The position numbers and the translations under genes are program-made. A stretch of 64,000 nucleotides of DNA. Source: a virus. Below, in pieces: positions 12,139 through 48,415 of the stretch. The stretch spans positions 1-64,000 of IMG/VR virus record IMGVR_UViG_3300021962_000061. One strand, written 5' to 3'. The notes under the pieces are model-generated. The model saw only the letters and a program-made list of their open reading frames with translations. It ran no database searches and had not been told where the DNA came from. Numbering within the stretch: position 1 is the first letter of the stretch; every line of letters begins with the position of its first letter.

Positions 12139-12146
12139 TATTTATA
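12139..12146 (-). promoter_or_regulatory. late promoter TATAAATA upstream of gp13
   Basis: Exact consensus. Confidence 0.8.
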
Positions 12147-13032
12147 GATCAATTACATCCATGCATTCAAGTAGTCCACTTGTCACCCTTTCTGTCTCAT
12201 TTCCATTGGCAATTATTCTATTAGCGGTGGTTTCGGGCAGCCATTTACCAACATTTATAGTAATATCTTTATATTTGTGATACGGATATCCAAATATTTC
12301 TTCAACTTTCTGTTTATTTGGAGCAGCAATTACCTTATTCCAGAAGTTTAGAATATATCCATTTTGGGCCCTGAGGTTATGGGCAATAGTTTGTCTTGCT
12401 GATATTGCGGCACCAATAAGAACGTCACTTTTATGATTTAAGTTTCTATCAAGGTACGCTAGTTGTTTTTTCTTAATTGCATCGCTTAGAAACTGGCCAT
12501 CATTACTGTAGTTTAAATTAGTAATTTTTGTCATGTCAACTACAAAAAAGTTGGTGTCTACAGACATATCACGTGGAGGTAAACCAATCATGCCATACAT
12601 TGCTAAATGTCTATCGTACTGATATACTCTTGATAAACATAGGCCTATTTTATTACAGTTTAGGTTAGACTTTGCAAATTGCGCATAGTCTTTAACAGCA
12701 ATTGCTCCAGCCATTATGCATGAAGCAACACCAGAATATCCTGTCAAGCTAATGGCATTAAGGGTTGATAAAATTGTATTTCTAATATCAAAATCTTCTA
12801 AAACAAATACTTTGTAATTTAAATTGTTTGCTTTTACAAATTCTGATACAACCTTATCATAATCTTTAAATGCAGCATACTCTTTGTTGGTTTTGTTTTC
12901 TTCATACATCGTGTTATATTTGGACACTTGGCTACCTGGAATGATGATTGTTACATCTTCAATTCCAAGATCTCCAAGAGACTTAATTGTCAAAAAACAA
13001 CCATGATGTTGTGCAATAACAAAAGTTTTCAT
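12142..13032 (-). CDS. putative divergent GT-A fold glycosyltransferase-like protein
   Basis: N-terminal Rossmann-like pattern (FLTIKSL...VTIIIP). DTNFFVVDMTKI...NDGQFL resembles the GT8 N-x-G-V-x-x-x-D-L...DQxxL segment. No clear DxD, so tentative. Confidence 0.4.
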   Translation of the reverse strand: MKTFVIAQHHGCFLTIKSLGDLGIEDVTIIIPGSQVSKYNTMYEENKTNKEYAAFKDYDKVVSEFVKANNLNYKVFVLEDFDIRNTILSTLNAISLTGYSGVASCIMAGAIAVKDYAQFAKSNLNCNKIGLCLSRVYQYDRHLAMYGMIGLPPRDMSVDTNFFVVDMTKITNLNYSNDGQFLSDAIKKKQLAYLDRNLNHKSDVLIGAAISARQTIAHNLRAQNGYILNFWNKVIAAPNKQKVEEIFGYPYHKYKDITINVGKWLPETTANRIIANGNETERVTSGLLECMDVIDL

Positions 13033-14012
13033 GTTATTACACCTTCTTTCTGAAATACTTCTTTGTTAGCTTCATCACCAACTTCACCTGGTTTATACTG
13101 CACTTTAACATGCTTATATTTTTTTGTGTTTTCAAAAAATCTGGCAATACATTCTGCCTTATTATTATGGTGAACAGTGATTAGACCAGACTCAGGGTGT
13201 GACATTAAAGCAGCAAATTTATTATATAATGTGTCCTTGACACCACATTTATCTAAAGATGTGTAGATTGCTTCAAATGTTTTACCAACACTAACTTTTT
13301 TATTATCAACTAATCCAATACCTTTACCTAGTAGTACAGCTGCACAACCTGTTTCTGATGATAACGTAAAGTATACTTTTTTAGATTTCTTAAAGATTGG
13401 ATACATTGAAGCATCGTTCCTAACAATCCTCTCTCTGTATTTTTGTTCTAGAATTGTTTGCCACACTTTGGCCGTGATAGGGTGTATCTTTACCCACGCT
13501 CCATTATTGTATAATTCATCAACTTTTTCCCAATCAACAGCATCCTTGTTAATTAAATTAGTCCCTGGTAGTAATACTAATTCATTAACATTAGCGTATT
13601 GATTATCAAGGTCATCATCTAGAATATACTTGTCTGTTAAATTATCTTTAAGTGCTTGAGCAATTCTAAATCCATCTTCCGTTGGACCCTTTCTTATTTG
13701 TTCAACCATAATGTCTACTGTAATGCGTGTATTGCATGCAGCAATGTATAGCACTTGAGTGAGTAGGTCGGTGTACTTATAACCAGTTATAGTATCTTTA
13801 GGACTACCGTAACTGATATCGTACTCAATTTTTAACCCGTTGGGATTTTTAGGAATTAGATCAGCTATTTCTGATAATCTATCATTAGCTGGGGAACGCA
13901 GCATATTTCCTGATTTCATGAAGTGGGTAACAGTGTCGTTTACCCATTCGTTAGAGGAAAGATTAAAGAATTTTTTCTTCTTTGTTTTTGGATCAACAAC
14001 TTCATCCACCAT
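13029..14012 (-). CDS. putative GT-B glycosyltransferase (KpsS/KpsC, sialyl- or Kdo-transferase-like)
   Basis: WVKIHP and VYFTLSSETGCAAVLLGKGI match the VKxHP...T.xS.xGxEAxxxGKP signature of CMP-sugar transferases. Confidence 0.6.
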   Translation of the reverse strand: MVDEVVDPKTKKKKFFNLSSNEWVNDTVTHFMKSGNMLRSPANDRLSEIADLIPKNPNGLKIEYDISYGSPKDTITGYKYTDLLTQVLYIAACNTRITVDIMVEQIRKGPTEDGFRIAQALKDNLTDKYILDDDLDNQYANVNELVLLPGTNLINKDAVDWEKVDELYNNGAWVKIHPITAKVWQTILEQKYRERIVRNDASMYPIFKKSKKVYFTLSSETGCAAVLLGKGIGLVDNKKVSVGKTFEAIYTSLDKCGVKDTLYNKFAALMSHPESGLITVHHNNKAECIARFFENTKKYKHVKVQYKPGEVGDEANKEVFQKEGVIT

Positions 14013-14211: not shown

Positions 14212-16200
14212 TTAATTAAACGTAGTTACGATAGTGGTATCGAATGTTGTTGTTCTAGAAGTATTGTACGATGTGTTGCGGTTAGTGTCATAAGTTGTGT
14301 TGTATGCAGAGCTAGTTGATTTGCTTGTGTTTATCACTGTGTCTCTAGTTGTATCATATGTCGTTGTTGTGTCAAATGTGCTAACGGTATCAAACACTGT
14401 TTGAATTACTGTATCAAATGTTGATGTTGTAGATTTTGATGTAGACTTGCTCGTGTCAATTGTTGTGTCATAAGCTGTTGTTGTATTGAATACAGTTGTT
14501 GTATTATAGTTAGTGTCAATAGTAGTATCAAATGTTGATGTTGTAGATTTTGATGTAGACTTGGTTGTTGCAATTGCAGTATCAAATGTTGTAGTTGTAT
14601 TAAATACTGTTGTTGTGTCGAATACAGTTGATCTTGTAGTTTCAAATGTGGTTGTTGTGTTAAATGTTGTTACAATTGTTGTATCAAATGTTGATGTTGT
14701 AGATTTTGATGTAGACTTGGTTGTTGCATATGCAGTTTCATAAGCTGTTGTTGTATTAAATACTGTTGTTGTGTCAAATGCAGTTGATCTTGTAGTTTCA
14801 AATGTGGTTGTTGTGGACTTACTTGTACCAATAACGGTATCAAAGGTTGTTGATTTTGTTGTAGCAAATGCTGTGTTAAAAAAGAAGGAAGTATCTTTAA
14901 CAGTATTGTTCAATACTGTTGTTCCATAAGTTGTCGTTGTATTAAATGATTCCGCAGTTTGTTTAGATGTTGCAGTTGCTCTACTTGTAGCTTTAGTTGT
15001 CACGCCCGCAGCACCGGTGTTAAAGTAGAATGTTGTATTGAAGTAGAATGTAGTACCAAAATAGAATGTTGTACCACCACCGGCTGATGTGTTGTAATAG
15101 AAAGACGTATCTCTAACAGTGTTATAAGCAACATATGGACTAAAGAAGAATACTGTAACGTAGTATGTTAAACCATCATATCGTGTGCCAAAATAGAATG
15201 TAGTGCCACCACCCGCTGATGTTCCACCTCCTGCAGCAGTGCCAGCGACCCGTGTTGTTCCAAAATAGAATGTTGTGCCATATGTGGTGTTATAAATTGT
15301 AGTTGTGTTAAAAGTTGTAACTGTTTGTTTAGATGTTGCAGTTGCTTTAGATGTATTAAAGAAGAATGTTGTCTGGAATGTTGTTAACAAAGCTGTGGTT
15401 GTAGCCCTTGTTGTATCATACGTTGTATTTCTTGATGTGGCATACCCAGTTTCATAAGATGTTGTTGTAGCACCTGATGTGTTGTAAGTGGTATTTCTAC
15501 TAGTAGCTGTAGCTTTTGATGTGGCGGTAACCCCTGATGTTGCAATTACTGTATCATATGTTGTATTATAAGTTGTGGTTGTAGATTTAGAAGTTGCATA
15601 TGTAGTGTTTCTACTTGTGGCTGTAGCTAAAGTAGTGTTGTAAGTTGTATTTCTACTTGTAGCAGTTGCATTAGATGTGCTTGTGGTTCTAGACGTAGCG
15701 TATGCTGTATCATACGTTGTGTCATATGTTGTAGTTGTAGATACAGTTGTCAAATACGATGTGAGAACAACGGATGCTGTTGTTCTTGATGTGCTTGTCG
15801 TCTTTGTTGTTGTGTAAGAGGTGCCATACGTTGTGTCATATGTTGTAGTTGTAGATACAGTTGTGGCATAGGCTGTGTTTCTACTTGTTGAGGTAGTTCT
15901 AGTTGTGGCTGTTGTTTTAGTTGTATTATATGTTGTAGCGTAGCTTGTTTCAAAGGTAGTTGTTGTTGCAATTGTTGTGCCACGTGACGTATTGAATGTT
16001 GTAACGATAGTTGTATCAAATGTAGTTGTACGTGATGTTTCGTATGTGGTATCTTTTTCAGCAACATAGACTAATCGTAGAGTACCATTATCATTAACGT
16101 AAACTCTATTAATCTTACGCAAAATACCGCCATCATTAACTTTAATGATCTTAGCGTCTCGTAGTGTTCCGTTATCGTTGACAAATATTTTGCGCGGCAT
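14212..16200 (-). CDS. Thr-rich self-complementary (predicted giant beta-hairpin) virion appendage protein
   Basis: 662 aa; N-terminal triple VNDxG motif followed by ~615 aa of 2/4/6-residue T-terminated units mirrored about FFFSPY. Confidence 0.8.
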   Translation of the reverse strand: MPRKIFVNDNGTLRDAKIIKVNDGGILRKINRVYVNDNGTLRLVYVAEKDTTYETSRTTTFDTTIVTTFNTSRGTTIATTTTFETSYATTYNTTKTTATTRTTSTSRNTAYATTVSTTTTYDTTYGTSYTTTKTTSTSRTTASVVLTSYLTTVSTTTTYDTTYDTAYATSRTTSTSNATATSRNTTYNTTLATATSRNTTYATSKSTTTTYNTTYDTVIATSGVTATSKATATSRNTTYNTSGATTTSYETGYATSRNTTYDTTRATTTALLTTFQTTFFFNTSKATATSKQTVTTFNTTTIYNTTYGTTFYFGTTRVAGTAAGGGTSAGGGTTFYFGTRYDGLTYYVTVFFFSPYVAYNTVRDTSFYYNTSAGGGTTFYFGTTFYFNTTFYFNTGAAGVTTKATSRATATSKQTAESFNTTTTYGTTVLNNTVKDTSFFFNTAFATTKSTTFDTVIGTSKSTTTTFETTRSTAFDTTTVFNTTTAYETAYATTKSTSKSTTSTFDTTIVTTFNTTTTFETTRSTVFDTTTVFNTTTTFDTAIATTKSTSKSTTSTFDTTIDTNYNTTTVFNTTTAYDTTIDTSKSTSKSTTSTFDTVIQTVFDTVSTFDTTTTYDTTRDTVINTSKSTSSAYNTTYDTNRNTSYNTSRTTTFDTTIVTTFN
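14411..14719. repeat. three identical 39-bp intragenic repeats (14411, 14525, 14681)
   Basis: GTATCAAATGTTGATGTTGTAGATTTTGATGTAGACTTG; spacings 114 and 156 nt. Confidence 0.9.
15555..15864. repeat. intragenic repeats in the opposite arm (identical 40-mers at 15711 and 15825, degenerate copy at 15555)
   Basis: CATACGTTGTGTCATATGTTGTAGTTGTAGATACAGTTGT; spacings 156 and 114 nt. Confidence 0.85.
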
Positions 16201-27846: not shown

Positions 27847-28944
27847 TTATTTGTCTTTTAGTCCTAACTCTAGGGTTTGCACTTTATCATTAAGATGTTT
27901 GATCGCTTCAATAAGTAGTGGAACTAATTTACTGTAATCCACTGCTTTATAGCCATCTGATCTTAAGTAAACAGCTTGTGGTGCTACCTTTTCAACATCT
28001 TGAGCAACCAAACCTATATCATTATCTGGTTTTGGGCCCACATTTGTTAAATCAGCAATTGCCTCTTTATCCCAGTCAAATTCAACGCCGTTTAATTTTA
28101 ATATCTTTTCAAGACTATTATCAATTAACTTGATATTTTTCTTTAATCTTTCGTCAGATGTATAATAAGCGGTTACATCACCTGTCGCGTAAATTGCACC
28201 ATTCACGTGCAAAGGAGCTTCTGGGTTAGTCACACCACCAACACCAATTCTTGCTGCTGTGTTTGAAATAAACAATGATGCTGTTGTACCACCAAAATTT
28301 ACATTAGCATTGAATCTTACTTGACCGCTACTATTGGCGTTTACGGTGCCTAATGTTAGTGTATCAATTTGTTGTTCGGTTAGATGGGTTAATCGTGTTC
28401 TTACCCACTTATTTGATGATGTGTCATATACAATTGTATCATAAGCAGAATTTGTAGTGTTAGCATACCCAACATTTGAAGTCAAAAGAAACTCGGCCGG
28501 GTCAAGATCAGTACCCTTAACATTTAAATTTGCAAACGCCATATACCCAGTACTGTTTGCTTTTAGCCAACCAGTAGTGGATGAGTAAGTGGATGATCTA
28601 TCAGCAAATCTAAGTTTTGTTGTTGTATCAATTGTTACGTTACCAAGAGCGCTCAAATGACCAATGGTATACAAATTGTATGAACCATCAACAACAACAT
28701 TCGTACTAATTGTAGCATTAGCACCAGCTGGACCTGTTAATGTGTTATTAATAGTTATTGTATTTGCAATAAAAGTACCAAATAATCTAGCTGTGTAACT
28801 GACTGTTGAGTTGCCAGTATTACTTCCTGTTGTATTAGCAGTAATAACAGCATTACTAATAGTCTGTGCTATTTGGTTGGTAATGGAAATCCAACCTGCA
28901 AATGTATCCGTATTTGCATTTATTTCGGAAATTACTACTGACAT
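27847..28944 (-). CDS. tail fibre with C-terminal intramolecular chaperone (peptidase S74)
   Basis: N-terminal DTFAGWISITN; YYTSDERLKKNI, GLVAQDVEKVAP, VDYSKLVPLLIEAIK. Confidence 0.88.
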   Translation of the reverse strand: MSVVISEINANTDTFAGWISITNQIAQTISNAVITANTTGSNTGNSTVSYTARLFGTFIANTITINNTLTGPAGANATISTNVVVDGSYNLYTIGHLSALGNVTIDTTTKLRFADRSSTYSSTTGWLKANSTGYMAFANLNVKGTDLDPAEFLLTSNVGYANTTNSAYDTIVYDTSSNKWVRTRLTHLTEQQIDTLTLGTVNANSSGQVRFNANVNFGGTTASLFISNTAARIGVGGVTNPEAPLHVNGAIYATGDVTAYYTSDERLKKNIKLIDNSLEKILKLNGVEFDWDKEAIADLTNVGPKPDNDIGLVAQDVEKVAPQAVYLRSDGYKAVDYSKLVPLLIEAIKHLNDKVQTLELGLKDK

Positions 28945-36709: not shown

Positions 36710-38773
36710 TTAGAACGTAATTACAAGTCTGACTTGTTCGTTTGTAGTATTTGATCTTTGAATTGGTAAAACATTTTGTATGTACAAAATTTCACCGGAA
36801 TATAGTTTAGCATCAGGAATTGTTGTTATATAGGTATTACCAATCACCTTAGAGTATTTAGCTCCCGAAGCAGCAATGGTTGGTGTAGCTGCATCCCCTA
36901 CAACATAGCCAACACCTGTTATTAATGTGTCGTTGACAAATGTATTAGCACTGCTTATACCACGAGTTTGATCCTTATCCAGTCCTGTTAATACAATAGT
37001 TGAACTGTTGGAAAATGCTACTTTAGCCATTATCTGGGACCCGCCCCCAGAATTATTAGATCCAACCACATATTCACCTGGAATTAATGACTGAGTTGCG
37101 TCTTGCGTTGCTGTTACTGCTACTGTTTGGTTAAAGAATGATCCTGAAAATCTTGGTCTAATTGTTAAAGCTTCAGCTACAACAGTACGTGAGAACGGAG
37201 ATTTAATCTTCAAACTTGTATCACTAACAACTTCAGTTACTTCTTTTTCTTCGTCCAAATAAACAATATAATCGCCAACGTTTACCTGGGCTGTAAAATA
37301 TGTTCCTGTTCCAGTAACAGATGTGCTATCAGCAACCAGATCCATTGTCCCTGTTCCTGTTATTGTGTTTGCAGCAAGAGGATTTTTAATGATACCTACA
37401 GATCTAAACTCAACTTCTGATGAATGCGAAAATGTTGCTGAATTGGAGAACTGCATACCAATACCAATAGATTGGCAGTATAATTCATCCACTACATTGA
37501 AGCCATGGCCACCAGGTGGTGATATTACTGCTCTTACTACTGCACCACTACCAAATCCTGTGGACGTCTGAATGTTTACATTAGCTTGCTTATAATTTTT
37601 GCCAGGATTTACAATCTCAATTTTTTGAATGCTACCAGTAAATGTAGTGTTTGAAACATTCTGCATTATAGCATAAGCAATACAATTTGATCCCGTTTTA
37701 GAATTAATCTTTACATACGGTGATATAATATATGGCTGATTATTAGCAACATCTCCTGTGTTAAATGGTGTTTTAACTATAGCAAAATTACCACTGCTGT
37801 TAGAAACATATTCACGAATTTCTTTAACGTATGTTTGATTTGTTGTGTCGTTAGTAATAATTAATGCACAGTTTGAAAAGAATCCATTTGTGGATGAAGA
37901 ATCGCTGTCAATTCCAATAACAAAATTATTATTGTTTAATGTTGAAATGGTTCCACTATCAGCTGGATAACTTGAGCCATTTGCTTCAACTGCAAAGTAG
38001 AAAATGGATCCTTCAATTGCCGCATTTTTAACATTTGCATTTTGAAAAATGGGAATAAAGTTATCTGTTGCAAATGTTAGAAAATCACTGTTATTAATTT
38101 CATACAAAAATAACCATCTATAACCATCCGACTCCTTAGGTGGATATCCCAGCTCAATATGTGTAGGTTCAATTGTTGACCTTCCATCATTGTTATTTTC
38201 AATACATTTGTAAACTTTATTTTCTGATGTTAATACGTAAAAGCTTTTTTCAATTAACTGTGTATCTTTATCGTCATATTTTGAATACAACGTGTTTGCT
38301 TGCCAGACAGTTTTTGAAGCCATTGGAATAACATTATTAGCAGTAATTTTTCTGCCAAACATCATTTCTTCATGCATGAATATGTTACTTTCATATTCAT
38401 TATCAATTGTATTTGCAGCAGTTGCTTCATCATCTTCATAAGGGGACTGTCGAGCAGCAAACACATAATAATTGTTATTAACTAACTTACCTTTCTTATA
38501 TGTGTTTGCTGAATATACACTACTAAATGATGCTGCTGTGGATAGATGTGTTGCATTAGTAATGCTTATAATTTGACGGGATTCAGGACCAATAAAAATA
38601 CGGTCATTGACCGTAACCTCGTTAACAAAATTTGTACCAACCCCAACCACAGTTGTGGATGTGGTATTTACGGTAATTGTACCTGATAAGTTAGCACTTA
38701 AAGTATTAGCAATAGAATCTATAAATGCGTCAACTATATTGGACTTGAATCTTGTTAACATTCTATTTCCCAA
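36710..38773 (-). CDS. gp8: baseplate wedge protein
   Basis: FYVLTSENKVYKCIENN, DGYRWLFLY, ISPPGGHG..VVDEL, GEILYIQN..PIQR. Confidence 0.85.
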   Translation of the reverse strand: MGNRMLTRFKSNIVDAFIDSIANTLSANLSGTITVNTTSTTVVGVGTNFVNEVTVNDRIFIGPESRQIISITNATHLSTAASFSSVYSANTYKKGKLVNNNYYVFAARQSPYEDDEATAANTIDNEYESNIFMHEEMMFGRKITANNVIPMASKTVWQANTLYSKYDDKDTQLIEKSFYVLTSENKVYKCIENNNDGRSTIEPTHIELGYPPKESDGYRWLFLYEINNSDFLTFATDNFIPIFQNANVKNAAIEGSIFYFAVEANGSSYPADSGTISTLNNNNFVIGIDSDSSSTNGFFSNCALIITNDTTNQTYVKEIREYVSNSSGNFAIVKTPFNTGDVANNQPYIISPYVKINSKTGSNCIAYAIMQNVSNTTFTGSIQKIEIVNPGKNYKQANVNIQTSTGFGSGAVVRAVISPPGGHGFNVVDELYCQSIGIGMQFSNSATFSHSSEVEFRSVGIIKNPLAANTITGTGTMDLVADSTSVTGTGTYFTAQVNVGDYIVYLDEEKEVTEVVSDTSLKIKSPFSRTVVAEALTIRPRFSGSFFNQTVAVTATQDATQSLIPGEYVVGSNNSGGGSQIMAKVAFSNSSTIVLTGLDKDQTRGISSANTFVNDTLITGVGYVVGDAATPTIAASGAKYSKVIGNTYITTIPDAKLYSGEILYIQNVLPIQRSNTTNEQVRLVITF

Positions 38774-38782
38774 ACCTTACTT

Positions 38783-41700
38783 TTAATTATTTATATAAAC
38801 GGTATCATAATTTGTTTGGATAGCCGTTTCATATGCAGTTGTAGTTGTTTTGTCAGTTACTATGCTTGTAGCTGTTGTAACAGTTGTATCAAGATCAGTA
38901 TCTTTATATACTGTATCAAATGTAGTAATAACTTCTGTTGTTCTTGTGGTATCTCTTACGTATTCAAACGTCTGTGTATTAGTTAGAATATTTGTTGCTC
39001 GACTGGTTAATTTACTACCTGTTAAAAATACAGTTGTAAGTTCAACGTCTGTTAAAGTATCAAACTCGGTAATTCTATCCTTATAATCAATAACAGTAGT
39101 CGTAGATTTTGATGTTAACTGTTGTGTTTGGCCAGAAGCTGTATTATACGTTGTAGATGTTAAAAACGAGGTTGATGTCTGTGTCGATACAGCAGAAAGA
39201 GTGGATTTTGATGTAGCAGTTGACTTTGTAGTTAGCAAAGCGGAAACAGTAGTTGAAGATGTTTCAAATGCTGTTGATGTGATTGATGTAATTGTACTTG
39301 TTGTCTTTGATGTAGCTGTTTGGAATTGTGTAATCAGTATAGAATCAGTCACTTTGGCTGTGTCAGTTAAAAATGCCGTTGTTGTAGTTGTTGAAGTATA
39401 TGTGTCTCTTGTGGTATTAAATGTTGTTGATCCAAAAGGCGTTGTTAAAAATACTGTATCATAATCTGTTGAAGTTGTCTTACCACCCTCATAGCGAGTG
39501 AATGCAGTAGTGGTTGATTTTGATGTGGATGTTGTTACATCTGTGTCAAGTGCTGTGTCTTTATAAACCGTATCAAATGTAGTTGTAGTAGCTGCAGAAG
39601 ATTGGGTAATAGCAAACGTTGTATCAAATGTAGTGGACGTTGATAATGTTGTGTCATACCCAGTTGTTGTGTTGAATGTTGTTAATGTGTTTTTAACAGT
39701 GGATGTGGTAACATCTGTATCCAGCGAAGTATCTTTATAGGTTGTTGAACCTGTGGTGCTTGTTAGCTTGGATGTTGCTGTACTCTTTGTTGTACCAAAT
39801 GTAGTCAGTGTATTTCTAGAAGTGGACAATGTTGTATTTGTATATGTACTTCTTGCAGTTTCAAATGCAGTAGAATATGCTGAAAGATACTGAGTGGTTG
39901 TATTAAATGTAGTATCATAAACAGTATTGTATACTGTTAATGTTCCTACTGTGGTGGCTGTATCCTTTGATGTTTGGCCAGGGTTTGTATTAATAACTGT
40001 ATTGAATGATGTGGTTGTAGTACTAGATGTAAAGAACCCACTTGAAGTGACATAAGTTGTGTTTGTTGTCTTAGATGTACTAATTGTGGTATCAACAAAT
40101 GTTCCAGCCCCAGAGTTTGTTTGATATGAAGTGTTATACGAAGTTGTTGTTCCAATTGTAGTTAAATACACTGTACCAATAACAGTCTCAAAAACTGTGG
40201 TTGTATCATAATCACCTGACATTGGATATAGTGTATCAGTTATAATGTCAGTAGATCTTGTTGTTGCCTTTGATGTTACGCTTGACGTTATTGTAATTGT
40301 GCCCTTAGATGTAAGACCCAGGGATGTAGCAGTTGTTTTGGATGTAGAAGTTGTAACATCTGTTTCAAGAGCAGTATCTCTAAACAGTGTTAAGAAAGTT
40401 GTAGCTGTACTTGAGGTTGTTATATAAGATGTTGTTGTTTGATTGCCTGTATCATAACCAGTATCAAATGCAGTTGATGTATTTACAGATGTCGAAAACA
40501 CAGTATCAAATGTTGATGTAGTTGATTTGGTTGTTGCATAATTTGTAGCGTACGCAGTTGCAGTTGTCTTAGCTGTATCAATATTAGTATCGTAGGTTGT
40601 AGAAGATGTAATTACTGTACTTGATAATGTGTCAAATGCTGTTGTTGTATTTTTAGAGGTAATAACATCTGTTTCAATACTTGTTATATAATCAGTATCA
40701 TATACTGTAGATGTTGACTTAGATGTTATGGATGATGTTGAAGTATTACGGGCTGTATTGTATGCAGTTGCAAATTCTGTAGAAGAGTCATACACAGTTG
40801 TAATTTCTGTACCTCTTCTTGTATCGTATGTGGTATTAATAACTGTACTTGTTGAGTATTCAGTAACGCGAGACACCGTAGCAAAGTTACTTACAAATAC
40901 TGTAGATCTACTGGTTGTTGTTGGCTTGTCAGTTGCTTGTGAAGTATTGAAGTATGTTATCACCTCAGTACCCTTAGACAAAGCTGTTGCTCTAGATGTT
41001 GATATGGACGTGTCAAATGTTGTTGATGTATCAAATTGTGACACATATCCAGTTGTAGTGCTCTTTGATGTACTGTACTGGGATGCATACTCAGTATCTA
41101 CTACTGTGTTGTAAAGACTTGAAGTCGTTCTGGCAGTGGCCTTCACAAGGTCTGTGTTGCGACTATCACTCAATGTTGTTTCATAAGAAGTTGCAATTGA
41201 TGTTGATGTGTCAATAGTTGTATCTGCAACACTGTCATATGCTGTAGTTGTTGATACGTTTGTTGATAAAGATGTGTTGAACGCAGATGCTGTAGTTTTT
41301 GAGGTAGCAACTAACGTATTATAAGTTTCGTATGTTGTTACAAAAACGCTACTGTAAACTGTGTCGTATACTGAAGTAGTTGCAATTAATGTTGGGTTTG
41401 TAGTAGCAACAACTGTGTCACGCAATGTGTTTCTGTTTTGGAACACAAACTCTGTGTCAGTAACTTTGGATGTTAAAACATTTGTATCTACAGAAGTTAT
41501 AATACCAGCAACCGTTTCATATTGCGTTTGATACGTTGAACTGTAAACAGTTTGTGTAGCTAGGATAACATATGTTGTTGTAGTGTTAACATCTGTATCC
41601 CGTGAGGTTGAGCGGTTTGTTGTACTAGCAAATGTAGTAGCCGTGTTTCTACTTTCATCCACACCGGTATCATAAGTTGTTGTAGTATCAAAAATTGATG

Positions 41701-43882
41701 TTGTAGATTTACTTGTAGATTTAGTTGTTGCATAACCTGTGTCGTAGGTAGTGTTAAACACTGTTGCAGTAGAAACATTTGTTTGTCTAGTTGTAAATCT
41801 ACCTGTGTTTGTAATCTTTTGTGTGATAAATGTTGTGTCAATAGTTGTATCAAATACAGATGTTGTATTTTTAGATGTAGCAAAAATAGTATCAAAGACT
41901 GTTGTAACAACACTAGATGTATCATATCCTGTTTGATAAGTTGTATCAAAGGAAGATGTGGTTGATTTGGAAGTTGTCTTAGTAGTGTTAATTGTTGTAT
42001 CAGTTAGAATTGCTGTATCAAACGCACTTACAACAGTTGTGTCGGTGCTATACGCTGTATTAAATGTGCTTAAAATAGTTGTGTCAAATGTACTTACAGT
42101 ATCAAATGTGGTAGTTGTATCAAACGTGGATGTAGTATCATAAGCAGTTGTAGTTGCCACAATAGTAGATGTAGCTTTACTTGTAGCAACACTAGTTGTT
42201 TTGGATGTTGCAGTTGCTCTAGATGTTACAATTACCGTGTCATAAGTTGTATTGTAGGTTGTAGTTGTTGTGTACGTTGTGTTAAACAGTACTGTTGTCT
42301 GCGTTGATCTACCTGTTGCTACTGCTGTACTATAAGATGTTGTGTATGTAGTTGTTGTTGATACGGACGTAGCTCTGGATGTTGCAAAAGCAGTTGAAGT
42401 AGCTTTATTTGTAGCTTTTGAAGTTTCAAAAGTTGTTGTTCTTGCTGTATTAAAAAAGAACGATGTGTCTCTAATTGTATTGGGTACCACAGCTGTAGTA
42501 CCAAATGTTGTGTTAAAAAAGAACGATGTATCTCTAACAGTGTTATTTAATACTGTTGTTTGTGTAGATTTTGATGTTGCTGTTTGTTTATTTGCTTCAA
42601 ATACTGTTACGGTATATGTAATAAGCTCCTCTTGGAGTTCGGGGTCAAAATAAGATGATACGGTTTCTCTAGAAGTAATAAAGGCTGTAACCGTATTGAA
42701 GGTTGATGTTGTATTGAAGAAGAATGTTGTCTGGAATGTAGTTAATAAAGCTGTATTTGTTGCTTTAGATGTATTAAAAAAGAATGTTGTCTGGAATGTA
42801 GTAAATAAAGCTGAGGTTGTTAAAAATGTAGTTGTTTTAGATGTATTATATACTGTATTAAACACCGTTGATGTTGATGAGGTTGTATCATATACAGTTG
42901 AATAGCTTGAAGTTGTAGCTTTAGAAGTAGCTGCACTGGTGTCAAATATGCTCAAGTATGATGTTGTTGTTGCCTTTAAACTGCTTGTTGCTTTGGTTGT
43001 ATCAGTGGATTTAGATGTCGATTTACTAGTAGCAAAACTTGTGTCAAAAGATGTTGTGGTATTGAAAGTAGTTGTATACTCAGAATCATAAGACGTGGTT
43101 GTAGCTACAGCTGTATCTGTGGATTTAGATGTACTTGTAAGCTTAGATGTTTGTGTTGATTTTGAAGTGCTTGTAGATACAGTTGTGCTATAAGACGTTT
43201 CTCTTGATGTACTTTTTGTTGTATCCGTTGAATAAGATGTTTCTCTAGTTGTTTCATAGGCAGTAGTTGTTTGATATGATGTCTCGTAAGTTGTTGTATA
43301 AGACGTTGTCGTAGCTTGATTTGTACCTAGAGTTGTTGTTACAAGTGTATTAAATGTAGTAGTTGTGTTCTTAGATGTGGACTGGGATGTATCAAGCGTA
43401 GTAGATGTTATCTTTGTTGTAATATAGGCTGTCGATCGTGATGTATTATAAGCTGTTACGGTATCAACAAGGGTTTCATATGCCGTAATGAATATGCTGG
43501 AAGTTGTCTTGGATGTACTCTTTGTCGTTAATACAAAAGTATCAAACGTCGTATTAAATACAGTTGTTGTTGACTTAGATGTAGAAGTAGCTTTGGATGT
43601 GTCAATATTAGTTACATACGCTGTAGTCGTTGTGGATGATCTGTCTGTATTGTACAGCGTAATGTATGTTGTTTGAGTTATATAAGCTGTTGCAATTTCT
43701 GTTTGTCTTTGCTGTTGTATTTCAAAAGAAGTTTCAGTAGCAGTTCTCGGAATTGCTTTAGTAATTTCAATCTTGGCACCGGAAGCGGGAGCTGTAACAA
43801 ATACAACATTGTTACCAGTAATAGTATAATTAGTACCTAGTACTTGCGTTATGCCATTGACTTTAACAACTATGCTGCTCAT
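38783..43882 (-). CDS. giant Thr-rich self-complementary hairpin protein, baseplate-associated
   Basis: 1699 aa; N-terminal VKVNG..Q..GTNY...F.TAP domain; same repeat grammar and shared motifs as 14212-16200. Confidence 0.8.
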   Translation of the reverse strand: MSSIVVKVNGITQVLGTNYTITGNNVVFVTAPASGAKIEITKAIPRTATETSFEIQQQRQTEIATAYITQTTYITLYNTDRSSTTTTAYVTNIDTSKATSTSKSTTTVFNTTFDTFVLTTKSTSKTTSSIFITAYETLVDTVTAYNTSRSTAYITTKITSTTLDTSQSTSKNTTTTFNTLVTTTLGTNQATTTSYTTTYETSYQTTTAYETTRETSYSTDTTKSTSRETSYSTTVSTSTSKSTQTSKLTSTSKSTDTAVATTTSYDSEYTTTFNTTTSFDTSFATSKSTSKSTDTTKATSSLKATTTSYLSIFDTSAATSKATTSSYSTVYDTTSSTSTVFNTVYNTSKTTTFLTTSALFTTFQTTFFFNTSKATNTALLTTFQTTFFFNTTSTFNTVTAFITSRETVSSYFDPELQEELITYTVTVFEANKQTATSKSTQTTVLNNTVRDTSFFFNTTFGTTAVVPNTIRDTSFFFNTARTTTFETSKATNKATSTAFATSRATSVSTTTTYTTSYSTAVATGRSTQTTVLFNTTYTTTTTYNTTYDTVIVTSRATATSKTTSVATSKATSTIVATTTAYDTTSTFDTTTTFDTVSTFDTTILSTFNTAYSTDTTVVSAFDTAILTDTTINTTKTTSKSTTSSFDTTYQTGYDTSSVVTTVFDTIFATSKNTTSVFDTTIDTTFITQKITNTGRFTTRQTNVSTATVFNTTYDTGYATTKSTSKSTTSIFDTTTTYDTGVDESRNTATTFASTTNRSTSRDTDVNTTTTYVILATQTVYSSTYQTQYETVAGIITSVDTNVLTSKVTDTEFVFQNRNTLRDTVVATTNPTLIATTSVYDTVYSSVFVTTYETYNTLVATSKTTASAFNTSLSTNVSTTTAYDSVADTTIDTSTSIATSYETTLSDSRNTDLVKATARTTSSLYNTVVDTEYASQYSTSKSTTTGYVSQFDTSTTFDTSISTSRATALSKGTEVITYFNTSQATDKPTTTSRSTVFVSNFATVSRVTEYSTSTVINTTYDTRRGTEITTVYDSSTEFATAYNTARNTSTSSITSKSTSTVYDTDYITSIETDVITSKNTTTAFDTLSSTVITSSTTYDTNIDTAKTTATAYATNYATTKSTTSTFDTVFSTSVNTSTAFDTGYDTGNQTTTSYITTSSTATTFLTLFRDTALETDVTTSTSKTTATSLGLTSKGTITITSSVTSKATTRSTDIITDTLYPMSGDYDTTTVFETVIGTVYLTTIGTTTSYNTSYQTNSGAGTFVDTTISTSKTTNTTYVTSSGFFTSSTTTTSFNTVINTNPGQTSKDTATTVGTLTVYNTVYDTTFNTTTQYLSAYSTAFETARSTYTNTTLSTSRNTLTTFGTTKSTATSKLTSTTGSTTYKDTSLDTDVTTSTVKNTLTTFNTTTGYDTTLSTSTTFDTTFAITQSSAATTTTFDTVYKDTALDTDVTTSTSKSTTTAFTRYEGGKTTSTDYDTVFLTTPFGSTTFNTTRDTYTSTTTTTAFLTDTAKVTDSILITQFQTATSKTTSTITSITSTAFETSSTTVSALLTTKSTATSKSTLSAVSTQTSTSFLTSTTYNTASGQTQQLTSKSTTTVIDYKDRITEFDTLTDVELTTVFLTGSKLTSRATNILTNTQTFEYVRDTTRTTEVITTFDTVYKDTDLDTTVTTATSIVTDKTTTTAYETAIQTNYDTVYINN
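38788..38795 (-). promoter_or_regulatory. late promoter TATAAATA upstream of gp8
   Basis: Exact consensus at the end of the preceding gene. Confidence 0.75.
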
Positions 43883-45840
43883 GCCCCACCAGGAATAGAG
43901 TATGCGTTTGTACTACCATCACCAACAAAACCCCTACCAGAATAGCCTGTTGTTGCTGATGTTACCTCACTAGAAATCAATACACGACCAAACTTTTCAA
44001 CACCTGCAGGGTGCCACAACTTTCTTAGTAAGTCACTATACTTGTCAAATACAATAGAGGATCTTACTTCGTATGAAAAATCTTGGTAGTAAAAACTATC
44101 GTGTATGTACTTATCTGAGTTTAAAAATCCTCTAGTGGATTTAAATCTACCTTCACCTTCACCTTGCTTGAGCACCTCAAGAGTACCTGTACCTTCTAGT
44201 TGGGTGTTTGCCAGTGACACAAGAGTAACAAATTCATTTGGCTCATATCCAAACCCCGAATCAGTAATTTTAACAGCACCAACAGCGTCTGTACCAAATC
44301 CTGTTAATGCTGTAATTACAGCATTGTTGCCAAGATAACCATTACCACTTTCTCCTCTGCCAGCTTCGTGTTGAACATCAAGCAACTTCAAAGTTGATAT
44401 AATAGTATCTACTGCTTTCACTTGAAGATTAGTGGTATAGCCTGAGCCAGGGTTGACAGTTTTTAGACGTCCAATGGTGCCCACTAAATAGTTTTGAAAT
44501 CCTAAAGCATCCTTCAGAAGTGTATCAAAACCAGCTTCAACATTGGATGATAATCCATATCCATTTGCTGTAGGATAAGACAATTGGCCAATTATCATAT
44601 TAGTGACATTGTTAGCTGTACCAATATAAGTTGTTGTTTGCCCGAGAGCTGAAATTTTTAGTGGAGATGTAAATAGGTTGTGCGTGTCTACTAATGTTTG
44701 GATCGCCAAGTTTGCTTCTTCCCCACCGCCGGCTATTTCAGCATCAAGTATAGCCGCCACACCAACACTTGGACTACTTGATGTATTAATAACACTGATC
44801 ACTACAGTGTTTGCGTTTAAGAAACCATTACCACCATTTGTTAGTGATATTGTTACAATACCACCCACAGTATTTGTACTGACGTTTGCTATTGCATTAA
44901 TAGAGCCGTTTGAAAGAATAACAATATCACTGTTGTCATAGCCAGAACCACCCGATGTTATGATTACATTTGTTACAGGACCTGTAATTTGAAATTCTGT
45001 GTTATCAATAGTATAGCCGCTACCACCATCAAGTAATCTAAAACTTACTGTGCCGTCTCTTTCTTCTAATTGTGTAACAACTGCTTTACACCCCTTGCCC
45101 TTACCTCTAACTTCTAGCTCATCTCCTAGATTAAAACCAAACCCTGTTTGGATTCCTGTTATTGATGTGGCTGAACCAATGATTTGAGGGGAGTTGATAG
45201 CACTAACAGCGGGTTCCGTGCCTTCAGGTAAGCGGGCTTGGTCAATTAAAACGGTTTCATCGTTTCGGAAGTTTCCTTCAACATCTGTCAAATAAAATAT
45301 GTTAATGTTTTTATTATTAATATATTTTGTTTGAAATCTTTCTACATAAGCTCTTGCACCAGATACACGCCCAACAATAAACTCACCAACAAATAATGAA
45401 TTGAAAGGCTTATAGGATACTTCAAGGTAGATGTTCTGCCCCCATTCACCATCAGAAAGTCTGAAGACATCGTCACCTGGTTTGTATACACTTATACTAT
45501 CACCAAATAACAATTGAAATAATAGTTTTAAACCACGCTCGGTTCCCTTTGAACCATATACTTCTTTAATATGTTTCTGGAGTAGCTGCTTATCGCCTGA
45601 AATATCTTCAGGAATTGGAAACATGTATTTTTTCTTAAACTCATTAATAAAGACATCAATTGTTTTATCAATATCTCTATATTCCAACAATCTTCTTGAA
45701 TCATAAAGAATTTGATCTTGAGATTCTAACCACTCGAAGTATGCTTTAACAAAAGCAATAAACAACGGACCTTCATCTCTGTAGATAGAAGGAAATTGAT
45801 CGGCAATAAATGGAGAAATGAATCTTTCTATTTGCTTCAT
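43879..45840 (-). CDS. gp7: baseplate wedge protein (gp7-like)
   Basis: FIAFVKAYFEWLE, DIDKT, YGSKGTERG..LLFQLLFG, HDSFYYQDFSYEVRS, WHPAG. Confidence 0.82.
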   Translation of the reverse strand: MKQIERFISPFIADQFPSIYRDEGPLFIAFVKAYFEWLESQDQILYDSRRLLEYRDIDKTIDVFINEFKKKYMFPIPEDISGDKQLLQKHIKEVYGSKGTERGLKLLFQLLFGDSISVYKPGDDVFRLSDGEWGQNIYLEVSYKPFNSLFVGEFIVGRVSGARAYVERFQTKYINNKNINIFYLTDVEGNFRNDETVLIDQARLPEGTEPAVSAINSPQIIGSATSITGIQTGFGFNLGDELEVRGKGKGCKAVVTQLEERDGTVSFRLLDGGSGYTIDNTEFQITGPVTNVIITSGGSGYDNSDIVILSNGSINAIANVSTNTVGGIVTISLTNGGNGFLNANTVVISVINTSSSPSVGVAAILDAEIAGGGEEANLAIQTLVDTHNLFTSPLKISALGQTTTYIGTANNVTNMIIGQLSYPTANGYGLSSNVEAGFDTLLKDALGFQNYLVGTIGRLKTVNPGSGYTTNLQVKAVDTIISTLKLLDVQHEAGRGESGNGYLGNNAVITALTGFGTDAVGAVKITDSGFGYEPNEFVTLVSLANTQLEGTGTLEVLKQGEGEGRFKSTRGFLNSDKYIHDSFYYQDFSYEVRSSIVFDKYSDLLRKLWHPAGVEKFGRVLISSEVTSATTGYSGRGFVGDGSTNAYSIPGGA

Positions 45841-48088: not shown

Positions 48089-48415
48089 TTAACCATTTGC
48101 AAAGACATTATGTGAACCCTCAGCAATGACATTTTGTTCTGGAGTGCCAGTACCATAATGATCATCTTGTCTACCAATTTGCTTGTTGCCAATAAAGACA
48201 TTTGGAGAGTATTTGTCTAAAACAGATTGATCCACTTCACACCCCTTTCTTTTATGTTCTGCTATTTTATTGCCCTTGACGGGTATTAATTTAAAATTAG
48301 CATATACATAACTGCTGTTAACCTCTCCAACTGCTGTGTTGACAGGGTTTCCACACTGATGGCCTTGACCAGTAGGTGATTGTACTCTATCTCCCTCTCT
48401 TGCTACAGCTGGCAT
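48089..48415 (-). CDS. PAAR-like spike tip protein (gp5.4-like)
   Basis: MPAVAREGD, His/Cys metal ligands, SPNVFIG, GSHNVFANG; directly after gp5. Confidence 0.85.
   Translation of the reverse strand: MPAVAREGDRVQSPTGQGHQCGNPVNTAVGEVNSSYVYANFKLIPVKGNKIAEHKRKGCEVDQSVLDKYSPNVFIGNKQIGRQDDHYGTGTPEQNVIAEGSHNVFANG

What the first reader, a model, noticed from the sequence alone, without database searches (positions are those of the whole stretch)
41585..43690. Second, independent giant hairpin using the same pairing code, inserted between gp7 and gp8
Seen: about residues 66-770 of the 1699-aa protein mirror around the turn SYFDPELQEELITY (~nt 42635). Pairs include SRET/VFEA, AFIT/NKQT, TFNT/SKST, TFFFNT/TVLNNT, TFQT/VRDT, NTALLT/SFFFNT, VYNT/SKAT and AYVT/SRNT, with only a few exceptions. 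The block ALLTTFQTTFFFNT and its partner VLNNTV(K/R)DTSFFFNT occur once per arm in the 662-aa protein but twice per arm here, so both partners were duplicated together. Inference: a family of ribbon appendages with ~350-residue arms, one on the baseplate and one on a fibre, with different tips (acidic DPELQEE versus aromatic FFFSPY).
Basis: partly seen in the sequence, partly recalled or inferred. Interest (0 to 1): 0.85.

Follow-up and report, generated by a model that had tools for sequence, protein, structure and literature searches.

The report
Giant fold-back threonine zipper fibre
A phage baseplate protein has two stretches of about 340 residues that match each other position by position when one is read backwards, so the chain very probably folds back into an extremely long, thin two-stranded beta ribbon, a fibre design I found in no paper, family library or solved structure.

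Summary
In the 1699-aa, 34%-Thr protein (38783-43882, minus strand), residues ~66-415 mirror residues ~418-770 around one centre. I aligned the arms on Thr positions alone. Centre 416 was then the single best of 1000 centres (score 36 against -93 +/- 17), and the register i+j stayed at 833-835 over 350 residues. Of 45 pairs holding Lys/Arg, 36 face Phe/Tyr and none faces Lys/Arg. No shuffle control reached these values. The DNA is not a palindrome.

Relatives show the same code with arms of 134-577 pairs. These include the gp7 of the cultured Stenotrophomonas phage DLP6. Close orthologues differ by matched indels at mirrored positions, such as 54 aa in each arm. In distant relatives the hairpin is fused to gp7. 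Here the gene is split from gp7 inside a domain, and that junction is conserved. Three orthologues carry a glycine-rich tail-fibre domain at the tip, but this protein does not.

My best reading is a single-chain two-stranded beta-ribbon stalk on the baseplate. The scan had already found this design on other DNA.

The parts
38783..43882 (-). Gene for the 1699-aa Thr-rich protein (P0001). No Pfam, PHROG or NCBIfam family matches it.
43733..43882 (-). Residues 1-50. These form the C-terminal part of a small beta-sandwich module whose first strand is encoded at the end of the upstream gp7-like gene. The two genes overlap by ATGA.
   Evidence: same split in 6 of 6 close relatives; weak Pfam hit to the T7 tail-fibre N-terminal domain, E 0.005, below its cut-off
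42656..43687 (-). N arm of the hairpin, residues 66-409
   Evidence: local mirror core 75-394
42614..42655 (-). Turn, residues 410-423, with Pro414 and the acidic run DPELQEE. The mirror centre lies between residues 416 and 417.
41573..42613 (-). C arm of the hairpin, residues 424-770
   Evidence: local mirror core 440-759
42710..42821 (-). Tandem duplication in the N arm (52 nt, 88% identity, 60 nt apart) holding the two TTFQTTFFFNT blocks
42443..42559 (-). Tandem duplication in the C arm (54 nt, 76% identity, 63 nt apart) holding the two DTSFFFNT blocks. It lies opposite the N-arm duplication.
40658..41107 (-). Candidate second, short hairpin, residues 926-994 against 1007-1075, with its centre near residue 1000. 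Support is weaker.
   Evidence: 12 aromatic:basic pairs, 0 of 5000 shuffles reach this; but the local mirror score is 20, within the shuffle range
43879..45840 (-). gp7-like baseplate wedge gene (653 aa), the presumed anchor. In distant relatives the hairpin is fused to this protein.
36710..38773 (-). gp8-like baseplate wedge gene (687 aa)
   Evidence: the phiM12 homologue is annotated as T4 Gp8, pfam09215
14212..16200 (-). Paralogue of 662 aa: a 48-residue N-terminal anchor followed by a hairpin that uses all the rest of the chain (49-355 against 356-662)

Best explanation
Residues about 66-770 fold back on themselves as one antiparallel two-stranded beta ribbon, about 340 residue pairs long. 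At 3.2-3.4 A per residue (textbook beta-strand rise, recalled) that is roughly 110 nm if straight.

One face of the ribbon alternates Thr:Thr rungs with rungs where a Phe/Tyr on one strand lies opposite a Lys/Arg on the other. I read these as cation-pi or aliphatic packing, flanked by Thr methyl groups. The other face carries small polar residues (Ser, Thr, Ala, Asn, Asp).

The base of the ribbon sits on the baseplate. The first 50 residues complete a small beta-sandwich module whose first strand is the last approximately 17 residues of the gp7-like wedge protein. In more distant phages the hairpin is simply fused to gp7.

The turn is the distal tip. In sister phages the tip carries a glycine-rich domain of a Pfam family found in phage tail proteins. 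The ribbon is therefore most likely a long, thin stalk that holds a host-contact element away from the baseplate. In this phage the tip is reduced to a 45-residue loop, hydrophobic FFF blocks either side of an acidic turn.

Shown: the mirror, the pairing rule, the matched arm lengths within every protein, the link to gp7 and the tip domains.
Inferred: that the pairing is beta-sheet hydrogen bonding within one chain, the length, the split-domain anchoring and the role in adsorption.
For: 1. There is a unique mirror centre and a constant register, with no shuffle reaching the observed values.

2. Thr spacing is irregular (units of 4, 5 or 6 residues; only 5 short tandem arrays in 5.1 kb). Yet it is reproduced in reverse order in the partner arm with 1 gap per arm over 319 pairs. 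Only a partner running antiparallel explains this.

3. The rule holds across the family. In 677 gap-free tetrads from 12 proteins, the middle position gives 342 aromatic:basic pairs, 0 basic:basic pairs and mutual information of 0.58 bit (z = 64, 0 of 2000 permutations).

4. Arms are matched within each protein but differ between proteins. They run to 319, 391, 457, 506, 440, 383, 472, 397, 249, 505 and 577 pairs, each with 0-3 gaps.

5. Indels are compensated. L012 and L015 are 81% identical. L012 lacks 54 aa after residue 428 and 54 aa after residue 804, and the mirror position of 428 is 808. L020 and L039 are 88% identical. Their gaps of 32 and 14 aa in the N arm face gaps of 32 and 14 aa at the mirrored places.

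6. This is not a DNA palindrome. Five of 319 codon pairs are reverse complements, nucleotide identity is 0.27 as in shifted controls, and only three inverted repeats of 18-23 nt were found.

7. Composition fits beta structure (established propensities, recalled). Thr, Val, Ile, Phe and Tyr are abundant. Pro and Gly are rare in the arms, and Pro414 sits at the centre.

8. Baseplate link. P0004-P0006 and 12 loci carry the Thr-rich part in the same ORF as a phrog_17744 gp7-like domain. The split junction is conserved in 6 of 6 close relatives.

9. Tip. PF21722 Gly_rich_2 lies between the arms in L012, L015 and L009 (E 3e-12, 7e-7, 5e-13, all above the cut-off). Glycine-rich domains at fibre ends bind receptors in Pam3 gp24 and S16 gp38 (PMC9608196, passages read).
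Against:
- The ESM Atlas's own model of the 662-aa paralogue is very poor (pTM 0.13, pLDDT 0.23). At least one predictor therefore sees no confident fold.
- I know of no precedent for a two-stranded ribbon hundreds of residues long without a hydrophobic core. Its stability as a monomer is open.
- The mirror code cannot tell pairing within one chain from pairing between two chains.
- Point-substitution covariation was not seen. Among 370-408 orthologous pairs in four comparisons there was no aromatic:basic to basic:aromatic swap. The rungs are simply conserved.
- Matched indels near the tip could come from one exchange of a pre-matched distal cassette rather than two compensating events.
- Residues 770-1699, over half the protein, are equally Thr-rich. 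Apart from the weakly supported short hairpin at 926-1075, they have no mirror partner above the shuffle range.
- Four of 19 family sequences gave no local mirror score of 30 or more (P0004, L040, L054 and the truncated L013). Two others were weak or less clean: L018 scored 32 and L026 scored 68, each with 3 basic:basic pairs.
- There are no data on expression, virion content or host.
Confidence: 0.7

Rival explanations
1. The arms pair antiparallel but between chains. The N arm of one copy would zip to the C arm of another, or several hairpins would join side by side into a wider sheet or a closed tube, as in the trimeric fold-back needle of T4 gp37.
For: The mirror code is equally satisfied in trans. 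One face of the ribbon holds only small residues, which could pack inside a narrow tube or against a second ribbon. Known phage fibres are trimers (established knowledge, recalled).
Against: In the fused relatives the hairpin is part of gp7. T4 has one gp7 per wedge (recalled from the T4 baseplate literature, not tested here), which leaves no nearby partner. Tight turns of 12-16 residues in L020, DLP6 and the short hairpin here favour a simple intrachain reversal. The arms always lie in one ORF.
Confidence: 0.17
2. It is a disordered, mucin-like Thr-rich spacer, perhaps glycosylated, and the mirror has no structural meaning.
For: The protein is 34% Thr and 13% Ser and matches no family. The ESM Atlas model of the paralogue has very low confidence. 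Other first-stage notes propose virion glycosylation.
Against: A disordered spacer puts no constraint on position. Here the register is constant over 350 residues and no basic residue faces another in 319 pairs. Orthologues keep both arms equal to the residue while arm length varies by more than 100 residues. Pfam found no glycosyltransferase family in the two ORFs proposed in that note.
Confidence: 0.04
3. It is a beta-solenoid or another repeat fold, like Thr-rich antifreeze or ice-nucleation proteins, and the mirror is a by-product of periodicity.
For: Thr autocorrelation peaks at lags 4, 10, 14, 18 and 28. Thr-rich flat surfaces are known in such solenoids (recalled).
Against: A periodic sequence would give many equivalent mirror centres, but only one of 1000 stands out. 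Unit shuffles that keep the periodicity lose the signal. Tandem Repeats Finder finds only 5 short arrays. A solenoid predicts parallel like-with-like stacking, not aromatic opposite basic in reverse order.
Confidence: 0.05
4. It is an artefact: misassembly of low-complexity DNA, or a mutational process such as inverted duplication.
For: Repetitive, compositionally skewed DNA is hard to assemble.
Against: The sequence was recovered with 0-2 differences in three samples. There is no DNA-level inverted repeat. The same design occurs in a cultured phage genome, DLP6, and in dozens of independent contigs. An inverted DNA duplication cannot place Thr opposite Thr, because the reverse complement of ACN is NGT.
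Confidence: 0.02

Closest known systems
C-terminal extension of the gp7 'baseplate wedge subunit protein' of Stenotrophomonas phage vB_SmaS-DLP_6 (KU682439.2, AMQ65900.1, 1288 aa)
   Same: It is the same family. A gp7-like core (41% identity to the window's gp7-like protein) is followed by a Thr-rich hairpin obeying the same rule: residues 718-966 against 983-1231, 249 pairs, 33 aromatic:basic and 0 basic:basic.
   Different: It is fused to gp7 in one ORF, whereas here it is a separate gene that starts inside a split domain. The arms are shorter, and there is no 900-residue Thr-rich tail after the hairpin. The feature is not described in the DLP6 paper (PMC5349666, passages read; 0 occurrences of 'threonine').
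Fold-back 'needle' of the T4 long-tail-fibre tip protein gp37
   Same: The chain runs out to a distal receptor-binding tip and returns, so both ends lie at the proximal side. The elongated beta structure sits on a T4-type tail.
   Different: gp37 is a trimer whose needle is held by seven iron ions bound by His residues (PMC6957217 passage). This protein has no His at all and no sequence match in the PDB. Its arms are several times longer and it has a residue-by-residue pairing rule.
Glycine-rich distal domains of tail-fibre adhesins (Pam3 gp24, S16 gp38; Pfam PF21722 Gly_rich_2 in the orthologues)
   Same: Three orthologous hairpins (L009, L012, L015) carry a PF21722 domain exactly between the arms. 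Glycine-rich domains at fibre ends recognise receptors (PMC9608196 passages).
   Different: The window's protein has no such domain in its 45-residue tip. PF21722 is not the GP38 family, and its fold was not tested here.
Single-layer beta-sheets without a hydrophobic core (Borrelia OspA central sheet, SasG/Aap G5-E rods; recalled)
   Same: These are thin, solvent-exposed beta sheets stabilised by cross-strand side-chain ladders rather than a core.
   Different: They have three strands and short repeats, are tens rather than hundreds of residues long, are not one giant hairpin, and show no sequence relation.
Antiparallel coiled-coil stalks that carry a domain at the turn (SMC/Rad50 arms; recalled)
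   Same: The logic is the same: two long complementary arms of one chain zip together and present a tip domain, and arm lengths co-vary.
   Different: Those arms are alpha-helical with heptad repeats. Here the composition and the 2/4-residue pattern indicate beta strands.

Membership tests
T4 gp7-type baseplate wedge protein (PHROG 17744 / Pfam PF23786) | Sequence match to the family profile | tested here: not met
   P0001 matches no PHROG, Pfam or NCBIfam family. The upstream 653-aa protein does match (phrog_17744 E 6e-137; PF23786 33 bits against a cut-off of 27). So do the N-terminal halves of the fused relatives P0004-P0006. The hairpin is an appendage of gp7, not gp7 itself.
Thr-zipper fold-back hairpin family (defined here) | A single mirror centre, with the Thr register reproduced in reverse order at few or no gaps | tested here: met
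   319 pairs with 1 gap per arm, and a score of 44 against a shuffle maximum of 28.
Thr-zipper fold-back hairpin family (defined here) | Lys/Arg faces Phe/Tyr and never Lys/Arg | tested here: met
   32-36 aromatic:basic and 0 basic:basic pairs. Pooled over the family: 342 against 0.
Thr-zipper fold-back hairpin family (defined here) | The arms physically form an antiparallel beta ribbon | not testable with these tools
The Atlas model of the paralogue is uninformative.
T4 gp37-type needle | His-x-His iron-binding motifs along the needle | tested here: not met
   There is no His in the protein. The iron sites are described in PMC6957217.
T4 gp37-type needle | Sequence similarity to solved gp37 chains | tested here: not met
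   A PDB sequence search with residues 1-800 gave only one chance-level hit, E 0.21.
Glycine-rich fibre-tip domain (Pfam PF21722) | Profile match above the gathering score in the tip | tested here: not met
   The window's tip (46 aa submitted) and the tip of the 662-aa protein match 0 families. The orthologues L012, L015 and L009 do match.
Beta-solenoid Thr-rich repeat proteins (antifreeze / ice-nucleation type) | Tandem coils of fixed length | tested here: not met
   Only 5 short arrays of 2.0-3.5 copies in 5.1 kb. Unit spacing is irregular. There is one mirror centre rather than many.
Mucin-like disordered Thr/Ser-rich linker | No positional constraint beyond composition | tested here: not met
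   Composition-preserving and unit-preserving shuffles lose the signal. Arms are matched to the residue in orthologues.

The most novel reading that the evidence does not exclude
A new class of protein fibre. A single chain zips back on itself for 130 to nearly 600 residue pairs as a two-stranded beta ribbon. Its partner positions are specified by a simple code, Thr opposite Thr and aromatic opposite Lys/Arg, much as a nucleic-acid stem is specified by base pairing. The stem can lengthen or shorten only by matched changes in both arms, or by exchange of the whole distal cassette, and any domain can be mounted at the turn. It would give phages a monomeric stalk of tunable length, about 45-190 nm, on gp7 and on a second anchor. 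It would also give protein designers a natural rule set for very long single-layer beta structures.
Probability: 0.6. Interest if true: 0.9.

Novelty: categorically new. Interest (0 to 1): 0.86.

Why it matters
Known phage fibres are built as trimeric beta-helices, beta-spirals, coiled coils or collagen-like rods. This would be a different design: a monomeric fold-back ribbon whose two halves are complementary, with a readable pairing rule and arm lengths that must co-evolve.

It is testable now, because a cultured phage (DLP6) carries it. It would explain hundreds of unannotated, one-third-threonine ORFs next to baseplate genes in aquatic viromes. It would show how a baseplate can hold a receptor-binding domain 50-190 nm away using one polypeptide. 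It would also offer a natural template for designing long, core-less beta materials.

The split of a small domain across the gp7/fibre gene boundary suggests a simple strand-complementation way of docking a fibre on a baseplate.

Tried and rejected
Searches that found nothing or little:
- Structure prediction of residues 296-536 and a two-chain test of arm against arm.
- The ESM Atlas look-up of the 662-aa paralogue returned only a very low-confidence model and unnamed viral clusters. This is uninformative.
- The word-indexed homologue search with residues 330-520 found nothing at 934-2974 aa. With the 662-aa protein it found only P0004.
- megablast and tblastn against phage records found nothing for the Thr-rich protein. 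The low-complexity filter probably hides it, because DLP6 does carry the feature.
- The PDB sequence search found nothing real.

Analyses that led nowhere:
- Ungapped counting of T:T mirror matches does not discriminate, because any periodic sequence scores.
- Extension from an anchored centre misses hairpins with large tips. I replaced it with a local mirror alignment.
- Point covariation between orthologues showed no swaps, so it is neutral.
- Association on the other ribbon face is significant (z about 12), but it may follow indirectly from unit type. I do not use it.

Ideas rejected or left open:
- A second long partner for residues 770-1699: none above the shuffle range.
- No other Thr-rich ORF in the window could pair with that region in trans.
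- A glycosyltransferase pair next to the paralogue: 0 Pfam families at E <= 0.01.
- Programmed frameshift at the gp7/fibre junction: the junction has no conserved slippery run in 6 relatives. I favour translational coupling, but this is untested.

Sequencing runs: no RNA holder was listed. Runs with small shares (X4-X9) are not used for habitat.

Paper searches found no description of Thr-rich fold-back fibres. Subscription journals and supplements are not covered, and no supplementary files were requested.
Full report
WHAT IS THERE. The finding lies in one ORF, 38783-43882 on the minus strand. It encodes 1699 aa, of which 576 are Thr (34%) and 224 Ser. There is no Cys, His or Trp. Upstream, in transcription order, lie gp5-like, PAAR, gp25-like, gp6-like and a 653-aa gp7-like wedge protein (phrog_17744, E 6e-137). 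Downstream lie a gp8-like wedge protein (phrog_438) and a 1940-aa DUF4815 protein, whose phiM12 counterpart at this position is annotated vrlC-like. The gp7 and gp8 names rest on homology to proteins so annotated in phiM12 and DLP6. The window is part of an 89.6-kb IMG/VR viral contig, estimated about 53% complete. The stretch occurs in estuary and marine metagenomes. The Thr-rich protein itself matches no Pfam, PHROG, NCBIfam or PDB entry.

CHECK OF THE MIRROR. The sequence is built of short units ending in Thr, so any mirror test must guard against periodicity and composition.

I aligned the reversed N arm with the C arm from a trial centre outward and scored only whether Thr meets Thr. Among 1000 centres, one (between residues 416 and 417) stands alone, with a score of 36 against -93.3 +/- 17.0. 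The alignment needs only three short gaps (four gap positions in all) in about 350 columns, and i+j stays at 833-835.

Aromatic and basic residues played no part in building that alignment, yet they sort themselves. Of 45 pairs holding Lys/Arg, 36 face Phe/Tyr, 3 face Ile/Leu/Val/Met, 6 face something else and none faces Lys/Arg. The mean over other centres is 10.6 aromatic:basic pairs.

Three nulls fail to reach this:
- Shuffling all non-Thr residues of one arm: 0 of 5000.
- Permuting only among the 44 columns of the same phase: 0 of 20000. Those columns hold 26 aromatic:basic, 0 aromatic:aromatic and 0 basic:basic pairs.
- 200 shuffles of whole units: local mirror score 18.1 +/- 2.2, maximum 28, against 44; at most 67 pairs against 319; at most 5 aromatic:basic pairs against 32.

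The aromatic partner is on the N arm 17 times and on the C arm 15 times.

The DNA is not an inverted repeat. The assembly is reproduced in three samples.

THE SAME DESIGN ELSEWHERE. The 662-aa protein of this window (14212-16200) is a collinear homologue. After a 48-residue N-terminal anchor it consists entirely of a hairpin, 49-355 against 356-662. Relatives of it have 505 and 577 pairs (L097, L094) with 38 and 60 aromatic:basic pairs and 0 basic:basic pairs.

An exhaustive profile-free search with residues 1-800 found ten proteins. Three long ones (P0004-P0006) have a gp7-like N-terminal half (phrog_17744, E 1e-170 to 1e-195) fused to a Thr-rich C-terminal half. A scan of IMG/VR with the gp7-like alignment gave 80 loci. 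Of these, 18 have an ORF with at least 27% Thr in some 200-residue window, and many of the others are cut off near the gene.

I ran a local mirror alignment, again scoring Thr only, on 19 sequences. Fifteen reached a score of 30 or more. Arms ranged from 106 to 506 pairs with 0-3 gaps, and loops from 14 to 505 residues. In total there were 448 aromatic:basic pairs against 6 basic:basic pairs, and those 6 are in the two weak or less clean cases, L018 and L026. Four sequences (P0004, L040, L054 and the truncated L013) did not reach 30. Pooled over 12 proteins, the middle position of 677 gap-free tetrads gives 342 aromatic:basic pairs, 0 basic:basic pairs and 0.58 bit of mutual information.

A cultured phage has the design too. 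The 1288-aa gp7 of Stenotrophomonas phage DLP6 pairs residues 718-966 with 983-1231 (249 pairs, 33 aromatic:basic, 0 basic:basic). The gp7-like proteins of four other isolates (RHph_I1_18, pf16, phiM12, OC) are not Thr-rich and score 4-6.

COMPARATIVE EVIDENCE FOR PAIRING. Arm length differs widely between proteins, but the two arms of one protein agree to within 0-3 residues.

Between L012 and L015 (81% identical), L012 lacks 54 residues after position 428 and another 54 after position 804. The mirror partner of 428 is 808. Between L020 and L039 (88% identical), gaps of 32 and 14 residues in the N arm face gaps of 32 and 14 at the mirrored positions. A third pair is 26 against 18 next to a 30-residue gap at the tip.

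These are either compensating events or exchanges of a whole, pre-matched distal cassette. Both imply that only matched arms survive. Single-residue covariation was not informative, because rungs are conserved and no swaps were seen.

ANATOMY AND LIKELY WORKING. Within a tetrad T-x-X-x-T, the Thr residues and the middle residue point to the same side of a strand. That side therefore alternates Thr:Thr rungs with Phe/Tyr:Lys/Arg rungs. At the middle position I counted Tyr 23, Lys 21, Phe 14 and Arg 10. The flanking positions are Ser, Thr, Ala, Asn and Asp.

The irregular spacing of Thr, mirrored exactly in the partner, argues against a solenoid and for direct antiparallel pairing. I infer a two-stranded ribbon of about 340 pairs, roughly 110 nm if straight.

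Its base is tied to the baseplate. The gp7-like protein ends with the first strand of a common phage beta-sandwich module, and the Thr-rich ORF starts, through an ATGA overlap, with the rest of it. The same split occurs in 6 of 6 close relatives, although the junction DNA differs at silent sites and has no shared slippery run.

The turn is the far end. In L009, L012 and L015 a PF21722 glycine-rich domain of 218-273 residues sits there, and it also matches a tail PHROG. Glycine-rich domains at fibre tips bind receptors in Pam3 and S16 (PMC9608196). The window's protein has only a 45-residue tip.

I therefore read the hairpin as a stalk for host contact. This phage either has a minimal tip or uses the ribbon surface itself. 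That functional step is inference.

After residue 770 the chain goes on for 930 Thr-rich residues. This part holds one possible short hairpin (926-1075) and four copies of a 14-residue motif, but no long partner.

COMPARISON WITH WHAT IS KNOWN. The closest relative with a name is the DLP6 gp7 extension, which its paper does not describe. In topology it recalls the gp37 needle, where the chain goes out and back with a tip at the turn. It fails that family's tests, though: it has no His, so it cannot have the His-bound iron sites described for the needle, and it shows no sequence similarity. It is not a solenoid, not a mucin-like linker and not a DNA palindrome (see the membership tests). Six paper searches found nothing on such fibres.

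Earlier reports of this same scan describe the same design in other genomes and also name DLP6. I had reached DLP6 independently. Those notes are not independent evidence.

LIMITS. Monomer against oligomer, virion presence, glycosylation and host are open.

VERDICT. The fold-back ribbon reading is strongly supported by sequence and comparative evidence but not yet by any structure. The design appears new, and a cultured phage allows a direct test.

Noticed in passing
43760-43945: A small beta-sandwich module is split across two genes. The gp7-like ORF ends with its first strand and the Thr-rich ORF begins, through an ATGA overlap, with the rest. The same split is present in 6 of 6 close relatives, with silent-site divergence and no shared slippery sequence. 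This suggests docking by strand complementation.
   Followed up: partly
14212-16200; L094:5992-9897; L097:6001-9552: There is a second anchor type. A 48-50-residue N-terminus with three NDNGTLR-like repeats is followed by a hairpin that uses the whole remaining chain. Arms reach 505 and 577 pairs in relatives. The gene sits a few genes upstream of the neck genes (gp14- and gp15-like), about where T4 has fibritin (recalled). Its attachment site is unknown.
   Followed up: partly
L012:13426-14244; L015:5933-6610; L009:13471-14124: Orthologous hairpins carry a Pfam PF21722 glycine-rich domain exactly at the turn. The window's protein has lost it or never had it.
   Followed up: yes
38860-40384: The Thr-rich tail holds four copies of a 14-residue motif of the form [YFL][KR]DT.L[DE]T[DT]VTT[SA]T, starting at residues 1167, 1382, 1440 and 1659. 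Its role is unknown.
   Followed up: no
L024, L042, L031, P0006 (C-terminal 60-100 residues): In fused relatives the big hairpin is followed by a short hydrophobic turn of the form V-[FY]-V-x-x-P-T (centres listed). This is possibly a clasp at the base of the stalk.
   Followed up: no
12142-14012: Another first-stage note proposed that these two ORFs are glycosyltransferases. They match no Pfam family at E <= 0.01.
   Followed up: partly
27847-28944 and 48089-48415: These are ordinary tail parts: a 365-aa protein with a Peptidase_S74 intramolecular chaperone domain (E 2e-15) and a 108-aa protein with a weak PAAR match (23.5 bits, below the Pfam cut-off of 27) next to gp5.
   Followed up: no
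L089 (KU682439.2 151407-155273): Between the gp7 core and the hairpin, DLP6 gp7 and the metagenomic proteins P0005 and P0006 share an extra, non-Thr-rich insert of about 150 residues. I did not identify it.
   Followed up: no
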